From the human T2T-CHM13v2.0 reference genome, Homo sapiens, in the NCBI RefSeq assembly GCF_009914755.1, contig NC_060935.1: a stretch of 64,000 nucleotides of DNA; one strand, written 5' to 3'. Position numbers and translations under genes: made by a program. Positions 2,365-52,450 of this stretch are shown here, piece after piece (the first letter of the stretch is position 1; the number at the start of each line of letters is the position of its first letter). The notes beneath the pieces were generated by a model, which did not search any database, was not told the origin of the DNA, and saw only the letters and a list, made by a program, of their open reading frames with translations.

Positions 2365-2900
2365 GCACCAGGCATGATTTTTCTAAAGTGCAAATGAGAT
2401 CAAGTCACTTTCCTGTTCAACACTTCCAGTGGTTTCCTGTCACACTTAAAACAAAAATCAACACTATTTAGACATGCCCCAGCCTCTTGTTCCCACAAGT
2501 GGGCACCACGCTCCCTCATGCCCACTTATGCTCCATCCACATTCTGTTCCTCTCTCAGGCCAAGCTTGTCTTTGGCTTTGGGCCTCTGTACCAGGCTCCT
2601 TATGCCTGGAATGTCATCCCCTGACCTTTGCGTGGCTAGTTCTTCTTGTCACTCCTCAGAGAAGCCTTCTCTGATCACCAGGCTAAGGTCACTTTCTTTT
2701 ATATCACCTGATTTTACTATCACTTACCACCATAAGACAGTTTCCTTGTTTATTTATTTGCTTATGTGTATAGTATGTTTCCTCCTACAAGAAGATAAGT
2801 GCAATGGAGCAAGGACCTTGCCTATCTTATCTTCCTTTCCCAGAACAATGCATGGCACATTGTTGACATTCAACAAATATTTCTGGTTGGATAAATGCAA
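2365..2900 (+). mobile_element. L2 3' fragment
   Basis: gatcaagtcactttcctgttcaacacttccagtgg, tgcctggaatgtc and ccagaacaatgcatggcacat...caacaaatattt L2 motifs. Confidence 0.65.
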
Positions 2901-16264: not shown

Positions 16265-16920
16265 TACATGCATTTATTAAATACCTACTATATGCTAGAC
16301 ATTGTGCAATGTGCTGGTGAAACAGTATGGAGGATAGACAAGGTCCTTTCCCACACAGAATTCCTGGTCCATGGTAAGACTTTAGAACAAGTATGTTCTA
16401 TGAGAGGGGAAGGGTAGAGTGCAACAGGAGATATGGCAGAAGCACACAGCCCTGTCTTGAGGAAAGGTAGGGAGAAGGTTGGTAGTCGGCGGGGGCTTCT
16501 GGGAGGAAGTAGTCTTTGAGTTGGGACATGAAGAGTAGTCCACTTGAAGAGGAAGGAAGCATGTTCGTGGCAGAGGGAACAACCTGTGTAAAGGCCTGGA
16601 GGTGAGGGAGAGCACATCATGTTCAAGAGAGTGAATGTTTAGAATGACCAGAACATAGAGCCTAGGGGCTAGTGATGGGAAATGAGGCTCAGGAGGTGGC
16701 AAAAGCAGACAGTGAGGCTTGAGAGCCAAATTGAGGAGTTTGGCAGTGGGAAATCATAAAAAGGCTTAACATCAACGTTGTTAAATGTATAGCTTAGGAT
16801 CCCTCTGCCTGCAGTGTGTGAATAGAGGGCAAAGAGGAGTACAGGTGGCAGGGAAAATGATTAGGAACAATTCCACCCAACCTAGGTAAGTATTACAAGT
16901 GGCTGAGATAAGAATGAAAG
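16265..16920 (-). mobile_element. L2 fragment
   Basis: catttattaaatacctactatatgctagacattgtg, ggcagagggaacaacctgtgtaaaggcctggagg motifs. Confidence 0.7.
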
Positions 16921-17048
16921 CTCCCTCAATGGAAGGGGTGGGTCTCACTGTATTTTAGAGATAAAATTAAAAGATTTTAAAAATCTGTCTTTTGTGATGA
17001 TCTGCCTTGGTAATAGATGAAATGTACTATACATGTAAGGTACGTATA

Positions 17049-28063: not shown

Positions 28064-29279
28064 ACTTAAAGTATGGGGAATAAAAACAAAATCCCAATGT
28101 TTCAATTACCAAATTTAGAACTTAAAAAGATAAAAGGTTTGAAGCAAAAGAGGATATGTAAATATACAACAATAAAATAAATATAACTTAGAGTACAATT
28201 TATGTATGGTTTTGGATGTGTGAAATCTGTTTATTTTAAACGCATTATTATCAGGGCTACTAGGGCTCAGGAGAAGAAAGTTCACTCTAAACATAGTAAC
28301 TGAAACTACAAAATTGTTTGAATGATTAATGATCTAACTTTGAAATAAAAGGCAAAGATTCAACATTGAATTTGAGCCAGGTATGTGTATGTAAAACAAC
28401 CACAGTCTTTAATTACATGCCATAAACCAAAGTCCAATCTAAAGTCGTTATTTGATGTAAAATGTAAGCATTGCCTATTAAAGAAAAAAAGGGAGGGATT
28501 ATCATAACCTTCCTCTTAGGTATTAGATGGCTTGTATTAATGTCTTTGAGTTATACTGGACAGTTCTAGAGTTCAGGAGATAGAAATACAAGGCACTTGA
28601 ATAAATAAACTTACATATGAGAATTATGGGAAAATCCAAATTTATTTATGCATCACAACAAATACTTATTGAGCACTTGTGATGTGCAAATGACCCCACC
28701 AAATACTATGAGAGATGCAGATACTCTTGTCTTAAAGAAACTTATAACTTTGTGGGAAAATAATATGTCCACACTTGTAACTGTAATAGAGCTCTGAATC
28801 TGGTGAATTCTATAGGAGTGGCAGGCTAACTAAAGTACTATAGAAGGTTTTGGAGGGAGAGTCTAGGAAGAAAGAGCATTATGAGCACAGCTGAAAATAG
28901 GGAAGTAGAGGGAGTGTTTGGGACATGTTGAGAGTCCCATTTGGCTATCATATGGGGTCCAGTAGTAAATCAAGGGGTAGCCTAAGTCAGAAAATTTCAT
29001 TAGGGGAGCACATGGAGGGCTCACAGACCTGCAAGGGTTTGTATTTAATTCTGTAGGCCACGGAAAATCACTGAAGACTTCTAGATACGGGAGTATAAAG
29101 ATTACTGTGATGGTGGTCAACAGGATGGGCTGGAGGTGGGGTGAATCAGAGCTGAGAGAAGAATCAATTTCTAGTCCAGGGTGAGGTATTATGACCCTAC
29201 ACTAGAATGGTGGCAGGTGGAATGAAATATTATTAAATTACTTAATGGCTCTTTTAACTCAGTTTATTTTTTCTTCCAG

Positions 29280-39372: not shown

Positions 39373-39826
39373 TGTGGTAGGCTGAATATTGCCCCAAAGA
39401 TGTCATGTCCTAATCCCTGAACCTGTGAATGTCACCCTATGTGGCAAAAGGGACTTTGCAGGTATGATTAAGGATCTTGAAGATAGGAAATTTATACTGG
39501 ATTATCCATAATGGCCCTATATGTAATCATGAGTGTCCTTATGAAAGAGAGGCAGTGGGAGATTTGGCTACAGAAGAAGGCAATATGACAACCAAGACAA
39601 GATGCCATGCTGCTGGCTTTGGAGATGGAGGAAAGGGCCATGGGCCAGGGAATGCAAGGAATGCATCTCCAGAAGCTGGGAAAGGTAAGGGAAAGGATTT
39701 TCCTCTAGAGCCTCCAGAGAGAGGTTGGCCTTGCAGATATCTTGAAACTGATTTTGGACTTCAGAGGTCCAGAACTGTAAGAGAAGAAATGTGTGCCAAC
39801 AAGTTTGTGGTAATGTGTTACCAGCC
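39373..39826 (+). mobile_element. MLT1D-like MaLR LTR
   Basis: tgtggtaggctgaat..ccccaaagatgtc, ggcaaaagggactttgcagg, cctctagagcctccaga, ccagaactgtaaga. Confidence 0.8.
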
Positions 39827-40318
39827 ACTCCATAGTTTATTTTATCCATCCTTATGATCGGAAAACCATTTTTATGCAAACAAATTCAAAATGTATTTCT
39901 CTAACCCTGACCTTGGGCTGCAGATTCACACAAATCCTGCTTGAGTAGGGCCACTGCAGCAGTCCCCAAACCAGCCTCTCCATCATCACTACTGCTCCTT
40001 TCCACCACTGTCCACACATTGCCTCACGTTTTTCCAAATTTCATCACTTTCCTGGTTACTACCCTTTACTGTCTTCCCATTTCACTTTTAATAACATCCA
40101 AACTCTTTACCTTGGTCTTTAAGACCCAGCTTGACTTGGCCCATGCCCACTCCTCCAACTTCTTGAACTCTGCTCCAGCTTTCATCCGCTCCTATACTCT
40201 GCTAGTTCTTTCTTGCCTCAGGGCCTTTGCACATGCTGCTTTCTATGCCTGGAATGCTCTCCCTCCCTAGCTTCCTCATTCCCTCTCTGTATTAGTCGGG
40301 GTTCTCTTAGAGGGACAG

Positions 40319-40321
<3 letters not shown>

Positions 40322-40381
<60 letters not shown>
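40322..40381. repeat. (AT)30 microsatellite
   Basis: Pure 60-nt run. Confidence 0.97.
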
Positions 40382-40384
<3 letters not shown>

Positions 40385-40450
40385 AGAGGATAATAATACC
40401 GGTCTTGTGCTTTAAGATGATTAATCTGCCAGTCATGTGTAGAATAGATC
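40381..40450 (+). repeat. Dispersed local repeat, copy A
   Basis: tgtaagaggataataataccggtcttgtgctttaagatgattaatctgccagtcatgtgtagaatagatc; 63/70 identical, ungapped, to 41979-42048. Confidence 0.93.
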
Positions 40451-41354
40451 ATTTTATATATATATATAATATATAATGATATATAAACTCATTTTATATG
40501 TATATAATGATATAAAAACTCATTTTATATATATATATAAGTTCATTAAGTATTAACTTACATGATCACAGGGTCCCACAATAGGCTATCTGCAAGCTGA
40601 GGAGAAAGGAGAGCCAGTCCAAGTCCCAAATCTGGAGAACTTGGAATCTGATGTTCGAGGGCAGGGAGCATCCAGCATGGGAGAAAGATGTACGCTGAGA
40701 GGCTAAGCCCATCTCTCCCTCTCACATTTTTCTGCCTGCTTTATATTCACTGGCAGCTGATTAAATTGTGACCAATGGATTACGGGTGGATCTGCCTTCC
40801 CCAGCCCACTGACTCAAATGTTAATCTCTTTTGGCAACACCCACACAGACACACCCAGGATTAATACTTTGTAGCCCTCAATCCAATCAAGTTGACACTC
40901 AGTATTCAATATCATATTCTCCTAGCTTTTCTAGTTCACATGTGGGTTCCCCTGAATTCCCTCTCTAAAGTGGGTCCTTCCCTCTGTTATTTACTATCTT
41001 CACTGTTTTCCTTTGCAGCACTTATTACAGGACATAATCATTTTATGTCTGTTGGCTTAAGTTTTGTCTGCCTCTTTGGCTGGAATGTAGCTCTGTGGAA
41101 GCAAGGATGCCTGACCTGTTTGGCTCAATGTTGCATCCCCAGCAGAGATCATAGTACAAATACATAATAGTTTATCAGCAAATATTCATTGAATGAATGA
41201 ATATATAAAGAGATTAGGCAGTCTACTGAACTTCACTATTTTGACTTAGACTATTTTGGTTGCAAAACTCTCATATTCAAATGTCAAGGTTCTCAAACAA
41301 GTAAAACAGAGTTCTGAGAGACTGCCTATGAGTTTCACAACCTACCTTGGCTTC

Positions 41355-41669
41355 TTTTTTGTTTGTTTAAGACAGAGTCTTGCTCTGTTTCCCAGGCTGG
41401 AGTGCAATGGCACAATCTTGGCTCACTGCCATCTCCACCTCCTGGTTTCAAGCGATTCTCTTGCCTCGGCCTCCTGAGTAGCTGGGATTACAGGCATGTG
41501 CCACCATGCCTGGCTAACGCCTGGCTAGCTTTTGTATTTTTAGTAGAGACATGGTCAGCCAGGCTGGTCATGTTGGCCAGGCTGGTCTCGAACTCCTGGC
41601 TTCAAGTCATCCACTGGCCTCGGCTTCTTAAAGTTTTGGGACTGCAGACATGAGCCACCACACCTGGCC
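41355..41669 (-). mobile_element. AluS/J with internal short duplications
   Basis: Antisense Alu; TSD accttggcttc on both sides. Confidence 0.9.
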
Positions 41670-41739
41670 TCCACCTTGGCTTCCTTCTAACAAATGACAC
41701 TGGGACAAGGGGAGAGGCAGGTGGACATGGGAGGAGGAT

Positions 41740-42076
41740 GTGTGATTTAATCCCTAAATGTATAATTATTAAAAAGTGATGTCATCAAAAACAAAGCATG
41801 AGAAACAGCCAGGAGGAGCTAAGAAGACATGCTGATGAAAGAAACATACTGTGGTACCCTAGATGGGCTCCTGGAACAAAAGGATATTAGGGGGAAACTA
41901 AGGAAATATGAATAAACTATGGACTTTAATTAATGTACCAATATTGTCTCATTTGTTGTAAGAAATATACCACACTAATGTAAGATAATAATAATAGGGG
42001 TCTTGTGTTTTAAGATGATTAATCTGCCAGTCATGTGTAGAATGGATGCAGGAATGGGGTATATGGGAACTCTCTG
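41740..42076 (+). mobile_element. L1MC-type 3' end
   Basis: ctaaggaaatatgaataaactatggactt, taccacactaatgtaagat..aataatagggg ... ggggtatatgggaactctctg. Confidence 0.75.
41979..42048 (+). repeat. Dispersed local repeat, copy B (direct to A, 1598 bp downstream)
   Basis: tgtaagataataataataggggtcttgtgttttaagatgattaatctgccagtcatgtgtagaatggatg. Confidence 0.93.
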
Positions 42077-42078
42077 GG

Positions 42079-42334
42079 ATGTGTGTGTGTGTGTATGTGT
42101 GTGTGTAGAGATAGAGTCTGGCTGTGTCACTCAACCTGGAGTACAGTGGTGCAATCACAGCTCACTGCGGCCTCAGACTCCTGGGCTCAAGCAATCTTCC
42201 TGCCTTATCATCCAGAGTAGCTAGGACTACAGGCACACACCACCACACCTGGCTATTTTTTAAATAAAACTTTTTGTAGAGATGGAGTCTTTCTATGTTG
42301 CCCAGGTTTGTCTTGAACTTCTGGCCTCAAGTGA
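42079..42334 (-). mobile_element. Truncated AluJ with (TG)n-converted tail
   Basis: (TG)n at 42079-42106, then cacagctcactgcggcctc..ctcctgggctcaagcaatc. Confidence 0.85.
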
Positions 42335-42820
42335 TAAAGTCTATGTTTTAAAAAAACAATGTTATCTACACTCTCATTTGACATGTTAAAGTCCTGTGGT
42401 TGGTAATGACAGCTATCAAATGCTAAATGCCACCAATGTGGCAGGCACTGTTACATACATTATCACATTTGATCCTCAGAACAACCCATGAGGTCAGAAG
42501 CATTATCCCTATTTGGAGAATAGGGAAATTGAGGCTTATAGATTTCCAGCGACACAGCCTTAGTCATGTATCAAGTAAGTGACAAACCCAGGAGTTGAAC
42601 CCAGGGTCTTCTCATTACCCTGAAAGAATGCTGGTACATGTCAGATTGTCTGATTTGATTTTTACAGTAGGAAAAAATGGTTCCCTTAGCTACCACACCC
42701 TTCTGTGCTACCCATTTCTATCCTCCAGACCACAGCACCAGTTTGGGCCTTTGTTACTTCTCCTTTGCCAAACTTTGACAGCCTCTTACCCAGCCTCTCC
42801 ATCTCCACTCTCTGCATTCC

Positions 42821-42890
42821 AGTCTATTGTATACATGGCTGGCAGATTAATCATCTTAAAGCACAACATCCTTTATATTCCTCCCTTCCA
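42821..42890 (-). repeat. Dispersed local repeat, copy C (inverted)
   Basis: Reverse complement ...gatgttgtgctttaagatgattaatctgccagccatgtatacaatagact; 41/44 identical to A over the core, 54/70 overall. Confidence 0.9.
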
Positions 42891-42996
42891 AAAACCCCCT
42901 AATGCCTACTGAAAAAAATCTGAACTACCTCCTCTGCCCCAACCTTTCCATCTTTGACTTGGCCCTATACCAGTGTCCAGTGGCTCTACATCCTAA

Positions 42997-43490
42997 TGAG
43001 AGGTGAAGCCAGCTGGGCTTCTGGGTCAGGTGGGGACTTGGAGAACTTTTCTGTCTAGCTAGAGGACTGTAAACACACCAGTCAGTGCTCTGTGTCTAGC
43101 TAAAAGTTTGTAAACGCACCAATCAGTACTCTGTAAAAAAGCACCAATCAGCGCTGTGTGTCTAGCTAAAGGTTTGTAAATGCACCAATCAGCACTCTAT
43201 AAAAACGGACCAATCAGCACTCTGTAAAATAGACCAATCAGCAGGACGTGGGTGGGGCCAGATAAGGGCATAAAAGCTGGCCACCCGAGCCAGCAGTGGC
43301 AACCCACTCAGGTCCCCTGCCACACTGTGGAAGCTTTGTTCTTTCGTTCTTCACAATAAATCTTGCCACTGCTCACTCTTAGGGTCCGCACTACCTTTAA
43401 GAACTGTAACACTCACAGTGAGAGTCTGCGGCTTCATTCTTGAAGTCAGTGAGACCAAGAACCCACCGGAAGGAACCAGTTCCAGACACA
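42997..43490 (+). mobile_element. 5' LTR (LTR12 family, LTR12F-like), 494 bp
   Basis: tgagaggtgaagccagctgggc...ccagacaca; 5 intact CCAAT units, GC box, agataag, cacaataaa. Confidence 0.92.
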
Positions 43491-43493
43491 TTT

Positions 43494-43511
43494 TGGTGAC
43501 CATGAAGGGAC
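43494..43511 (+). other. Primer-binding site complementary to tRNA-Arg 3' end
   Basis: tggtgaccatgaagggac = TGGCGACCACGAAGGGAC with two CpG transitions, immediately after the 5' LTR. Confidence 0.85.
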
Positions 43512-51669: not shown

Positions 51670-52450
51670 AGACTAATAGCTAGTAACTAGTGTGGCTAGT
51701 ATTATGGGAGAATTTCACAAAGGGACCTAATCTAGTCTGTCTACTTAGGGAAGGCTTTCCCAGGGAAGTGACATCAAGCTGAGGCCAGAAGGGTGAATAA
51801 AGGTGGGCCAGGCAAAGAGGCCACTGTGGGGAGTGTTTTGGGTGGGAAGGCCTGGAGGAGGCCAAGGGCTTAGCTAACTTGAAGAACTGAAAGGAAAGCA
51901 GTGAAGCTGGTGGTGAGGTAGGCAGAGGCCATGCTAAGAAATTTGTATTTTATGCTAAAAACAATGTACACTTTAAGTAGAAAAGATGATCCGACTGGAG
52001 TTTTGAAAAGCTCATCCTGGCAGCTGTAGAGGAGAATGGAGGGGGACCCTGTCTCACATATTTCCTATATGTGGTTAGGAGACAGGATGGTGAGTTGAAT
52101 TGGGTATTGGCAGTGCAGGTGGAGGGGTGTCAGATTTGCTATATTTAGGAGAGAGAAGCAAGAGAATTTGAAAATTGGTTATGGCAGCTGTGAGAAATGG
52201 AGTGTTGAAGATGGTGCTCCAGGATTCCGACTTGGGTGCACAGGTGGCTGGTGGTACATTTAGTAAGATGGGGAAGATGGAGTTCAGGTTTAAGGGGAAG
52301 ATGAAGACTGAAGTCCTGGCCGTTATGAGTTTGAAGCCCTATGAGCCATCTACGCGGAGAGAGCTGTATACGCTCTTGGATGTGTGTTTAGCGGCCAGGC
52401 TGGGGTGGAGAGGTACATGTGGGAGTTGAGGCTTGTATCTGTGGACCCAC
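51670..52450 (-). mobile_element. L2 fragment(s)
   Basis: agggaaggctttcccagggaagtgacat, ttttgaaaagctcatcctggcagctgt, gagttcaggttt motifs. Confidence 0.6.

What the first reader, a model, noticed from the sequence alone, without database searches (positions are those of the whole stretch)
40381..42890. One ~45-70 bp sequence occurs three times (two direct, one inverted), each inside a different unrelated transposon
Seen: the core ttgtg(c/t)tttaagatgattaatctgccag(t/c)catgt(g/a)ta(g/c)aat(a/g)ga occurs at A 40381-40450 (+), B 41979-42048 (+) and C 42821-42890 (-). All alignments are ungapped. A vs B is 63/70; A vs C is 41/44 in the core, with 28 consecutive identical bases. A sits in the AT microsatellite of an MLT2A LTR. 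B sits between aatagggg and ggggtatatgggaac of an L1MC 3' end. C looks like the native position in a decayed L2. Other L2 copies of the same motif in this window (~16790, ~29095, ~52000) are far more diverged, so shared L2 ancestry does not explain the identity. A also carries B's L1-derived left flank, and at the core positions where B and C differ it matches one or the other. The core is centred on the palindrome GATTAATC, and A and B also contain TCATGTG. Inference: a chain of local templated insertions or gene conversions (C->B inverted, then B->A). The direct-direct-inverted layout could also support deletion of the 1598-bp A-B interval or inversion of the ~780-bp B-C interval. A shared protein-binding site is more speculative.
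Basis: partly seen in the sequence, partly recalled or inferred. Interest (0 to 1): 0.8.

Follow-up and report, generated by a model that had tools for sequence, protein, structure and literature searches.

The report
Two chained local templated DNA insertions
A 55-70-base piece of an ancient repeat was copied upside-down into a neighbouring repeat and then, together with a bit of that neighbour, copied again into a fragile TA-repeat 1.6 kb away; these are old scars of error-prone DNA repair, a known kind of mutation, with no sign of function.

Summary
A (40380-40449,+) and B (41978-42047,+) match at 64/70. Both match C (42823-42890,-), with 41/44 identity in the core. Across the 3.1-Gb assembly the 22-nt core has exact matches only at these three sites and no 1-mismatch hits.

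A profile of the old repeat family matches C well beyond the copied stretch. At A and B it stops at the insert edges, so C is the native copy.

B replaces the 11-27-nt native spacer seen in 11/11 other copies of its host repeat with about 55 nt copied from C in reverse.

A carries 23 nt of B's host flank, including a B-specific base. It lies in a hypervariable microsatellite of a young LTR-like element, and 0/9 other copies examined carry it.

The order is therefore C->B->A: two local templated insertions from break repair or replication template switching. The second hit a hairpin-forming (TA)30 tract.

Gene conversion, independent transposition and artefact do not fit. Nothing suggests function: the invariant core is not longer than chance (P=0.15).

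The tracts (54-70 nt, 0.8-1.6 kb from their templates) are longer and more distant than typical polymerase-theta scars.

It is a new example of a known kind. Primate orthologues could not be checked.

The parts
42817..42926 (-).
   Evidence: A profile HMM built from 15 other genomic family copies (A, B and C excluded) matches 42926-42817 at E=3.2e-11, model positions 140-260. That is about 58 nt past the stretch shared with A and B.
42815..42868 (-). Donor segment of C that was copied, in reverse complement, into B.
   Evidence: Gapped alignment of B 41979-42056 to C 42890-42815 gives 60/78 columns. The family-derived part starts at B 42001-42003.
42001..42057 (+). B insert: about 55 nt, an inverted copy of C that replaces the native 11-27-nt spacer of the host repeat (a deletion-insertion).
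   Evidence: 11/11 other genomic copies with both anchors carry spacers of 11-27 nt, of AAACTG/AAATTG type, and none is L2-like. B has 57 nt between the anchors. The family profile matches exactly 42003-42056 at E=5.8e-8.
41930..42000 (+).
   Evidence: 31-55 of 70 positions are identical to each of 11 other genomic copies.
42058..42082 (+). Native right flank of B (same host repeat), followed by a (TG)n tract and an Alu-like insertion.
   Evidence: 18-22 of 25 positions are identical to each of 11 other copies. The hub table lists 42054-42364 as masked repeat.
41978..42047 (+). Donor stretch for A: 23 nt of B's host flank plus 47 nt of B's insert.
   Evidence: 64/70 identity to A in one ungapped block.
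40380..40449 (+). A: a direct copy of B. 40380-40402 derives from B's host flank and 40403-40449 from the L2-like insert.
   Evidence: 64/70 identity to B. A shares B's derived A at the position equivalent to 41988, where the host family has T in 8/11 copies. The family profile matches only 40396-40449. The segment is absent from 9/9 other copies of the host LTR-like element.
40322..40381 (.). (AT)30 microsatellite directly left of A. It is a perfect self-complementary tract and the likely break site.
   Evidence: Folded as single-stranded DNA it forms a 30-bp hairpin stem. For the region 40300-40560 the z-score is -5.66 and 0 of 200 shuffles fold as well (repeats I3-I25).
40450..40544 (.). 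AT-rich minisatellite directly right of A: about 31-nt units, with TCATTTTATAT occurring 3 times. It is not seen in other copies of the host element.
   Evidence: Repeat families D1 and D5. Nine other copies have only 21-118 nt between the flanks, against 222 nt here.
40287..40918 (+). Host of A: a young LTR-like interspersed element.
   Evidence: 39 other genomic copies scored 88-90% identical to 40545-40920, out of 4,053 first-look candidates of which 40 were scored. The left flank from about 40286 matches the same copies.

Best explanation
Two successive local templated insertions, each a scar of error-prone repair of a broken chromosome or collapsed replication fork.

Step 1. A break inside the 3' end of an L1-type repeat lost about 10-13 nt of native spacer. 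A free 3' end then primed on the opposite strand of a neighbouring ancient L2-like fragment (C). C lies 776 nt away today, and was probably nearer before an Alu-like insertion. The end copied about 54 nt and rejoined, which created B as an inverted deletion-insertion.

Step 2. Later, a break in a hairpin-forming (TA)n microsatellite inside a young LTR-like element, 1.6 kb upstream, was patched in the same way. About 68 nt were copied in direct orientation from B, starting 23 nt inside B's native flank. A therefore inherited B's chimeric junction.

Shown: the copies, their uniqueness, the native state of both recipient sites, and the order C->B->A.

Inferred: the break, the microhomology priming and the enzymes. 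The single uninterrupted tracts of 54-70 nt and the template distances of 0.8-1.6 kb fit replication-type template switching (MMBIR or synthesis-dependent end joining) better than classical polymerase-theta scars. After copying, all three copies drifted neutrally. No function is implied.
For: The trio is unique. The exact 22-mer is found only at A, B and C in 3.1 Gb, with none at 1 mismatch. The 70-mer and 291-mer queries hit only the trio. These are the only short, local, high-identity, non-tandem pairs among the 30 self-matches in the 64-kb window.

C is native. The family profile extends about 58 nt beyond the copied stretch at C (42926-42817, E=3.2e-11), but ends at the insert edges at B (42003-42056) and A (40396-40449).

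B is a replacement-insertion. 11/11 other host copies carry an 11-27-nt spacer and none is L2-like. B's flanks match those copies at 31-55/70 on the left and 18-22/25 on the right.

A derives from B. The 23-nt host flank was copied along with the insert, including B's derived A where the family has T in 8/11 copies. 9/9 other copies of A's host have the two flanks joined by a 21-118-nt microsatellite, and 0/9 have the A segment.

The differences fit the tree ((A,B),C). In 44 shared nt there are 2 changes on B, 2 on C and 1 on the A/B stem. Family states favour G at 40439 (6 of 15) and at 40442 (6 of 15), as in A and B, and C at 40433 (6 of 15), as in C.

At 10 of the 48 columns from 40403 to 40450 the trio agrees while the family plurality differs.

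The (AT)30 tract folds into a 30-bp hairpin, z=-5.66. TA-rich repeats are described as break-prone (abstract of PMC13738482).

Inverted templated insertions with microhomology, replacement of native sequence and multiple templates occur as human germline variants (passages of PMC8421209).
Against: Junction microhomology is short and ambiguous. It is AT at both ends of A, which is uninformative inside a TA tract. At B's right end it is at most TG(G). At B's left end there is none, and one base (42002) matches neither the donor nor the host.

The tract lengths and template distances exceed what the papers read describe. Polymerase-theta insertions are 3-30 bp copied from the immediate flanks, with single tracts rarely over 10 bp (PMC7165422). 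The MMB-TI search tool only looks within 100 bp (PMC8421209).

C's native status rests on the profile alone. BLAST of C's flanks gave 0 hits in 27 rows. Pairwise flank scores were only weakly above the nulls: P=0.018 and 0.019 upstream, P=0.04 and 0.27 downstream. On the side below 42817 the profile match does not extend past the copy.

Substitutions are uneven. A has 0 changes in the 47-nt L2-like part but 3-4 in the 23-nt flank part.

The polarising family sample was selected for similarity to the query within the 22-mer.

No other species or human haplotypes could be examined, so the order and the ages are inferred from one genome.
Confidence: 0.8

Rival explanations
1. One complex event. 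A single multi-switch repair or replication episode created B and A at essentially the same time, instead of two events separated in time.
For: Pairwise differences in the shared 44 nt are similar and small: A-B 2, A-C 3, B-C 5. Only one site (40433) separates A and B from C on the stem, and it could be a copying error. Multi-template germline events are described in PMC8421209 (passages).
Against: It needs two separate breaks 1.6 kb apart, plus copying from a product formed moments earlier. A's host element is much younger than B's host, so a long interval was available. The data cannot discriminate between the two.
Confidence: 0.1
2. RNA-mediated patching (class 2 templated sequence insertion). 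A reverse-transcribed fragment of a local transcript, not DNA, served as the patch at one or both breaks.
For: Class 2 insertions lack target-site duplication and poly(A), and show microdeletion and microhomology (passages of PMC5110952). A and B share those features.
Against: Those insertions are described as coming from distant regions, whereas here both donors lie within 1.6 kb. The stretch is intergenic in the hub's gene table. Nothing in the sequence requires RNA.
Confidence: 0.05
3. Gene conversion between pre-existing homologous tracts at A, B and C.
For: It would explain high identity among old repeats.
Against: Neither recipient had a tract to convert. 11/11 other copies of B's host have an unrelated short spacer. 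9/9 other copies of A's host have only a microsatellite at that point. The family profile match at A and B ends at the insert edges.
Confidence: 0.02
4. Independent insertions of the same ancient repeat, or a repeat-family consensus that natively contains the segment.
For: The core belongs to a real old family: 99 genome hits at <=3 mismatches against 6 for the control.
Against: There is no other genomic copy within 1 mismatch. Other in-window family copies are far more diverged. A shares B's non-L2 flank. The trio agrees against the family plurality at 10 of 48 columns.
Confidence: 0.01
5. A selected functional element, for example a protein-binding site centred on GATTAATC that is maintained in three copies.
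For: The 22-nt core is identical in all three copies.
Against: With 5 variable sites in 44, an invariant run of 22 or more arises by chance with P=0.145. No RefSeq functional element overlaps 40380-42890 in the hub table, and Rfam finds nothing. Flank and core changes look like neutral drift.
Confidence: 0.02

Closest known systems
MMBIR-type templated insertions (MMB-TI; Osia et al. 2021, PMC8421209; abstract and passages read)
   Same: The insert is a copy of nearby sequence. B is inverted relative to its template and replaces native sequence ('insertion with replacement'). Junction homology is short. Such events exist as inherited human variants and can use several templates.
   Different: The templates here lie 776 and 1,598 nt away, whereas that study's tool searches only within 100 bp. 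A is in direct, not inverted, orientation. Here a second event re-copied the junction made by the first.
Polymerase-theta templated insertions (TINS; Carvajal-Garcia et al. 2020, PMC7165422, abstract and passages; van Schendel et al. 2015, PMC4490562, passages)
   Same: Break repair with a small deletion plus an insert identical to neighbouring DNA, in direct or inverted orientation, primed at microhomology.
   Different: Those are described as 3-30 bp copied from the immediate flanks, with single synthesis tracts rarely over 10 bp. Here the single uninterrupted tracts are about 54 and 68-70 nt and lie 0.8-1.6 kb from their templates.
Short-range template-switch mutations, four-point model (Loytynoja and Goldman 2017, PMC5453318; passages read)
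   Same: A fragment is replaced by the reverse complement of a nearby fragment in one switch-and-return event, as at B. The GG>CC change in A that completes the palindrome ACCGGT is the kind of small cluster that model explains.
   Different: That model is explicitly restricted to short-range switches and does not treat long-range or successive rounds. The B event spans hundreds of bases, and A is a direct copy.
Templated sequence insertion polymorphisms, class 2 (Onozawa and Aplan 2016, PMC5110952; abstract and passages read)
   Same: A patch of templated sequence at a repaired break, without target-site duplication or poly(A), and with microdeletion.
   Different: Those patches come from distant regions and are proposed to be RNA-derived. 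Here the donors are local and no RNA step is needed.
Fragility of TA-dinucleotide repeats (PMC13738482, abstract and outline read; PMC13669725 and PMC7616858, search listing only)
   Same: Site A is a long, perfectly self-complementary (TA)n tract of the kind reported to form secondary structures and break.
   Different: Those reports concern cancers lacking WRN or mismatch repair. That this tract broke in an ancestral germline is inference.

Membership tests
Templated insertion by template switching (MMB-TI sense of PMC8421209) | The inserted sequence is a copy of a nearby genomic template. | tested here: met
   A-B 64/70. B-C 60/78 columns. The core is exact at all three sites and nowhere else in 3.1 Gb.
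Templated insertion by template switching (MMB-TI sense of PMC8421209) | The insert is inverted relative to its template. | tested here: inconclusive
   Met for B relative to C, on opposite strands. Not met for A relative to B, on the same strand.
Templated insertion by template switching (MMB-TI sense of PMC8421209) | The template lies within 100 bp. This is the search criterion of that study's tool, not a biological limit. | tested here: not met
   The distances are 776 nt (B-C) and 1,598 nt start to start (A-B).
Templated insertion by template switching (MMB-TI sense of PMC8421209) | Microhomology at the junctions. | tested here: inconclusive
   A has AT at both ends, inside a TA tract. B's right end has at most TG(G), and native spacers end in TGG in only 3 of 11 copies. 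B's left end has none, though the adjoining flanks agree at 13/22 (shuffle P=0.017).
Templated insertion by template switching (MMB-TI sense of PMC8421209) | The recipient site lacked the segment before the event. | tested here: met
   0 of 11 other copies of B's host and 0 of 9 other copies of A's host carry it. This uses paralogous copies as a proxy, because orthologues are not available.
Polymerase-theta templated insertion (TINS, PMC7165422) | Insert of 3-30 bp, with single synthesis tracts rarely over 10 bp. | tested here: not met
   The tracts are uninterrupted and about 54 nt (B) and 68-70 nt (A) long.
Polymerase-theta templated insertion (TINS, PMC7165422) | The template is in DNA immediately flanking the break. 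| tested here: not met
   The templates are 0.8 and 1.6 kb away.
L1-mediated insertion (class 1 TSIP, PMC5110952) | Target-site duplication of at least 5 bp, and a poly(A) tract at the insert's end. | tested here: not met
   B lost native spacer instead of duplicating it. Neither insert ends in poly(A). A duplication at A cannot be judged inside (TA)n.
   The profile HMM of 15 copies matches 42926-42817 at E=3.2e-11. Pairwise tests were weak or negative. The family name itself could not be tested without a repeat library.
Gene conversion between paralogous tracts | A pre-existing homologous tract at the recipient site. | tested here: not met
   as described above.
Substrate for homologous deletion or inversion (NAHR) | Uninterrupted identity of roughly a hundred bases or more. 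This threshold is recalled from the literature on mammalian recombination and comes from no call. | tested here: not met
   The longest identical runs are 35 (A-B), 28 (A-C) and 22 (B-C) nt.

The most novel reading that the evidence does not exclude
The relay is not a coincidence of two random repairs. The three sites may be held together, or the copied segment may itself be a preferred template. For example, the segment could be a fork-stalling or protein-bound sequence around the palindrome GATTAATC that repeatedly attracts invading 3' ends. In that case a short piece of a dead transposon would propagate locally through the repair machinery without any transposase. The imperfect 13/22 match between C's flank and B's host flank, and the fact that both known copies of this segment arose within 2.5 kb, are compatible with this but do not show it.
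Probability: 0.04. Interest if true: 0.7.

Novelty: new member of a known kind. Interest (0 to 1): 0.25.

Why it matters
This is a clean natural example of a mutation class that is hard to detect. The second copy carries the chimeric junction made by the first, so the template must have been local DNA and not another copy of the repeat family, and the order of events can be read from a single genome. The tracts (54-70 nt) and template distances (0.8-1.6 kb) fall outside what two of the papers I read cover. The tool in PMC8421209 searches within 100 bp, and the model in PMC5453318 is short-range only. Events like this are therefore probably under-counted, and may be mis-annotated as odd transposon fragments or mistaken for conserved elements. 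The case also links a long (TA)n hairpin tract inside an LTR-like element to an ancient germline repair event. No effect on the neighbouring genes HEPHL1 or PANX1 is indicated.

Tried and rejected

(2) An unbiased anchor for sampling family copies. No 20-mer from any real copy matched more than 1 of the 15 other rows (14 family rows plus C) at <=4 mismatches, so I dropped the idea. The family sample used for polarising is therefore biased towards the query inside the 22-mer.

(3) My first script for the host-flank comparison was off by one base and caught only 3 of 11 loci. It was redone correctly.

(4) BLAST of C's flanks without the copied stretch gave 0 hits in 27 rows. Pairwise Smith-Waterman flank scores were only weakly above the nulls, and the positive controls were equally weak, P=0.07-0.39. 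Pairwise methods lack power for this family, and the profile resolved the question.

I would have called these unconfirmed, but the profile then found them.

(6) The Rfam scan of 39500-43500 found 0 families.

(7) A constraint test on the invariant core was not significant, P=0.145.

(8) Considered and rejected: gene conversion, independent transposition, L1-mediated insertion and assembly artefact. Six substitutions between A and B argue for old copies, not a duplication error, but no second assembly was available.

(9) The homeology between C's flank and B's host flank is 13/22, with shuffle P=0.017, and 171 of 127,956 window 22-mers do as well. This was a post hoc test, so I treat it as suggestive only.
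Full report
OBSERVATION. A (40380-40449, +) and B (41978-42047, +) match at 64 of 70 positions without gaps. Both match the reverse complement of C (42823-42890). A vs C is 54/68 ungapped, with 41/44 in the core and a 28-nt identical run. B vs C is 60 of 78 columns with one 2-nt gap, and that alignment runs on to B 42056. The 22-nt core occurs exactly three times in the window against 0.01 expected, and 0 of 100 shuffles reached three. A self-comparison of the whole 64-kb window gave 30 pairs. The only short (35-120 nt), local (<=5 kb), >=88% identical, non-tandem pairs among them were A-B and A-C.

UNIQUENESS IN THE GENOME. The window's own 3.1-Gb assembly could be searched. The 70-mer of B hit only B, A and C. 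A 291-nt query around C hit only C, A and B. The 22-mer with up to 3 mismatches gave 99 hits against 6 for the reversed control, so it belongs to a real old repeat family. However, the three exact hits are all local, there are none at 1 mismatch, and there are 7 at 2 mismatches. Of the 89 hits at 3 mismatches, 21 are one tandem array with about 9.5-kb spacing on contig C23, and 5 share a single variant on C14 and C16.

WHICH COPY IS NATIVE. Of 27 fetched loci, 15 proved to be related to one another and align with C. I first assumed that this showed C to be in native context, but a control said otherwise. With the copied stretch removed, C's flanks gave no BLAST hit in 27 rows. Pairwise flank scores were only weakly above the nulls: P=0.018 and 0.019 upstream, 0.04 and 0.27 downstream. 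Positive controls were equally weak, so pairwise methods simply lack power for so old a family. A profile HMM built from the 15 rows, with A, B and C left out, settled the matter. It matches C over 42926-42817 (E=3.2e-11), about 58 nt beyond the stretch shared with A and B. At B it matches exactly 42003-42056 (E=5.8e-8), and at A only 40396-40449 (E=7e-8). The same profile finds further, much more diverged copies at 2512-2380, 16714-17000 (E=3.3e-4), 29034-29087 (E=0.02) and 51924-52030 (E=0.033).

SITE B. Eleven other places in the genome carry both anchors that bracket B, and the reversed control found none. In 11 of 11 the anchors are separated by 11-27 nt, mostly beginning AAACTG or AAATTG, and none resembles the shared segment. 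B has 57 nt between them. B's flanks are homologous to those copies at 31-55 of 70 positions on the left and 18-22 of 25 on the right. B is therefore a deletion-insertion. The native spacer was lost and about 54-56 nt copied from C in reverse orientation took its place.

SITE A. The sequence to the right of A belongs to a far younger family than the other repeats here. Thirty-nine other copies scored 88-90% identical to 40545-40920, out of 4,053 first-look candidates of which 40 were scored. In 9 of 9 copies examined, the two flanks of A's position lie 21-118 nt apart. They are joined by a short, hypervariable (TA)n, (TG)n or (GATA)n microsatellite. The window copy has 222 nt there, and 0 of the 9 copies contains the A segment. 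Directly to the left of A is (AT)30, which as single-stranded DNA folds into a 30-bp hairpin. For 40300-40560 the z-score is -5.66, and 0 of 200 shuffles fold as well.

ORDER OF EVENTS. A begins with 23 nt that are B's host flank, not L2-like sequence. In those 23 nt A shares B's derived A where 8 of 11 family copies have T. So A was copied from B, or from a B-like product, and not from C. Where A and B differ in the flank, B has the family state at three positions: T in 9/11, and GG in 11/11. One position is ambiguous. A therefore changed there after copying. In the 44 nt shared by all three copies there are five variable sites. Two are private to B. Two are private to C, where A and B keep the family plurality (G in 6 of 15 at each). 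At one site A and B share T while C keeps the family plurality (C in 6 of 15). This fits the tree ((A,B),C). At 10 of the 48 columns from 40403 to 40450 the trio agrees while the family plurality differs. Two caveats apply: the family sample is small, and inside the 22-mer it was selected for similarity to the query.

JUNCTIONS AND MECHANISM. At A, the two bases AT at each end could come from either partner, which says little inside a TA tract. At B, host sequence runs to 42000 and the family match begins at 42003. Base 42002 fits neither source. At the right end, up to TG(G) could be shared. Just outside the left junction, C's own flank matches B's host flank at 13 of 22 positions. The shuffle P is 0.017, 171 of 127,956 window 22-mers do as well, and other host copies score 8-13. 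This was a post hoc observation that may mark where the invading end paired.

The pattern has four features: a small deletion, one uninterrupted templated tract, little microhomology, and a nearby template in either orientation. That is the pattern of templated insertion during break repair or replication template switching. In the passages I read, inverted templated insertions with microhomology, with replacement of native sequence and with several templates, are reported as inherited human variants (PMC8421209). Polymerase-theta insertions are described as 3-30 bp copied from the immediate flanks, with single tracts rarely above 10 bp (PMC7165422; see also PMC4490562). The four-point template-switch model is restricted to short range (PMC5453318). 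Tracts of 54-70 nt copied from 0.8-1.6 kb away therefore fit a more processive, MMBIR-like or synthesis-dependent route better than classical polymerase-theta scars. Which enzymes acted is inference. That the (TA)n tract was the break site is also inference. It is supported by the fold and by reports that TA-rich repeats are fragile (abstract of PMC13738482).

AGE. With an assumed rate of 1.0-1.3e-9 per site per year (general knowledge, not a call), A-B at 6/70 gives about 35-45 Myr. The 44-47-nt comparisons give 17-62 Myr. The counts are tiny and the intervals wide. A must be younger than its host element, whose best relatives are 10-12% different. All of this points to events in an ancestral primate, tens of millions of years ago. 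No orthologous sequence was available to test that.

FUNCTION. There is no support for function. An invariant run of 22 or more among 44 sites with five variable positions arises by chance with P=0.145. Rfam finds nothing in 39500-43500. The hub's table lists no functional element between 38957 and 44339. The exact palindrome GATTAATC is present in 8 of 15 family rows, a sample selected for similarity. The in-window copies that cover the motif read differently there, so it is not a general family feature. The repeats share at most 35 identical bases in a row. That is far below the lengths that I recall as needed for efficient homologous deletion or inversion.

VERDICT AND LIMITS. It can be sharpened to two templated insertions, not gene conversions, in the order C->B->A. 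Whether they were two events or one complex event is open. The mutation class is known, and this is a particularly legible example of it. Three limits apply. Native states of the recipient sites were inferred from paralogous copies, not orthologues. No other assembly, species or functional data could be consulted. I searched the paper library four times for mechanisms, not for this locus, so I make no claim about whether the locus is in print.

Noticed in passing
window 40398-40403: In A, the host-derived GG (11/11 in the family, and in B) has become CC. This turns AGGGGT into the perfect palindrome ACCGGT. A two-base cluster that completes a palindrome is what a very short template switch would produce, but two ordinary substitutions cannot be excluded.
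   Followed up: partly
window 40450-40554: An AT-rich minisatellite lies right of A: about 31-nt units, with TCATTTTATAT occurring three times. The first occurrence abuts A's last bases. It has no counterpart in the 9 other copies of the host element examined. Whether it arose before or after A is unknown.
   Followed up: partly
L049-L057 (position equivalent to window 40322-40544): The internal microsatellite of this LTR-like family is hypervariable between copies. It ranges from 21 to 118 nt and consists of (TA)n, (TG)n, (GATA)n or poly(A) in different copies. It is a built-in unstable spot carried by thousands of elements.
   Followed up: no
G000 contig C23, 48716509-48915818: A 3-mismatch variant of the 22-mer recurs 21 times at about 9.5-kb spacing, so it lies in a large tandem array unrelated to this locus. 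A second variant occurs 5 times on C14 and C16, probably in duplicated segments.
   Followed up: no
window 43030-43232: Tandem units of 25, 41 and 66 nt each carry ACCAATCAG (repeat families D2 and D3). They lie directly right of C's element, inside the masked stretch 42994-43368. They look like the CCAAT-box repeats of an LTR12-type element; that name is recalled and was not tested.
   Followed up: no
window 2380-2512 (-) and 16714-17000 (+): Further diverged copies of the same ancient family lie within HEPHL1 introns, found by the profile at E=3.2e-7 and E=3.3e-4.
   Followed up: no
window 42868-42890 vs 41979-42000: C's own flank and B's native host flank agree at 13 of 22 positions just outside the junction. 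This may be pre-existing homeology that guided the template switch.
   Followed up: partly
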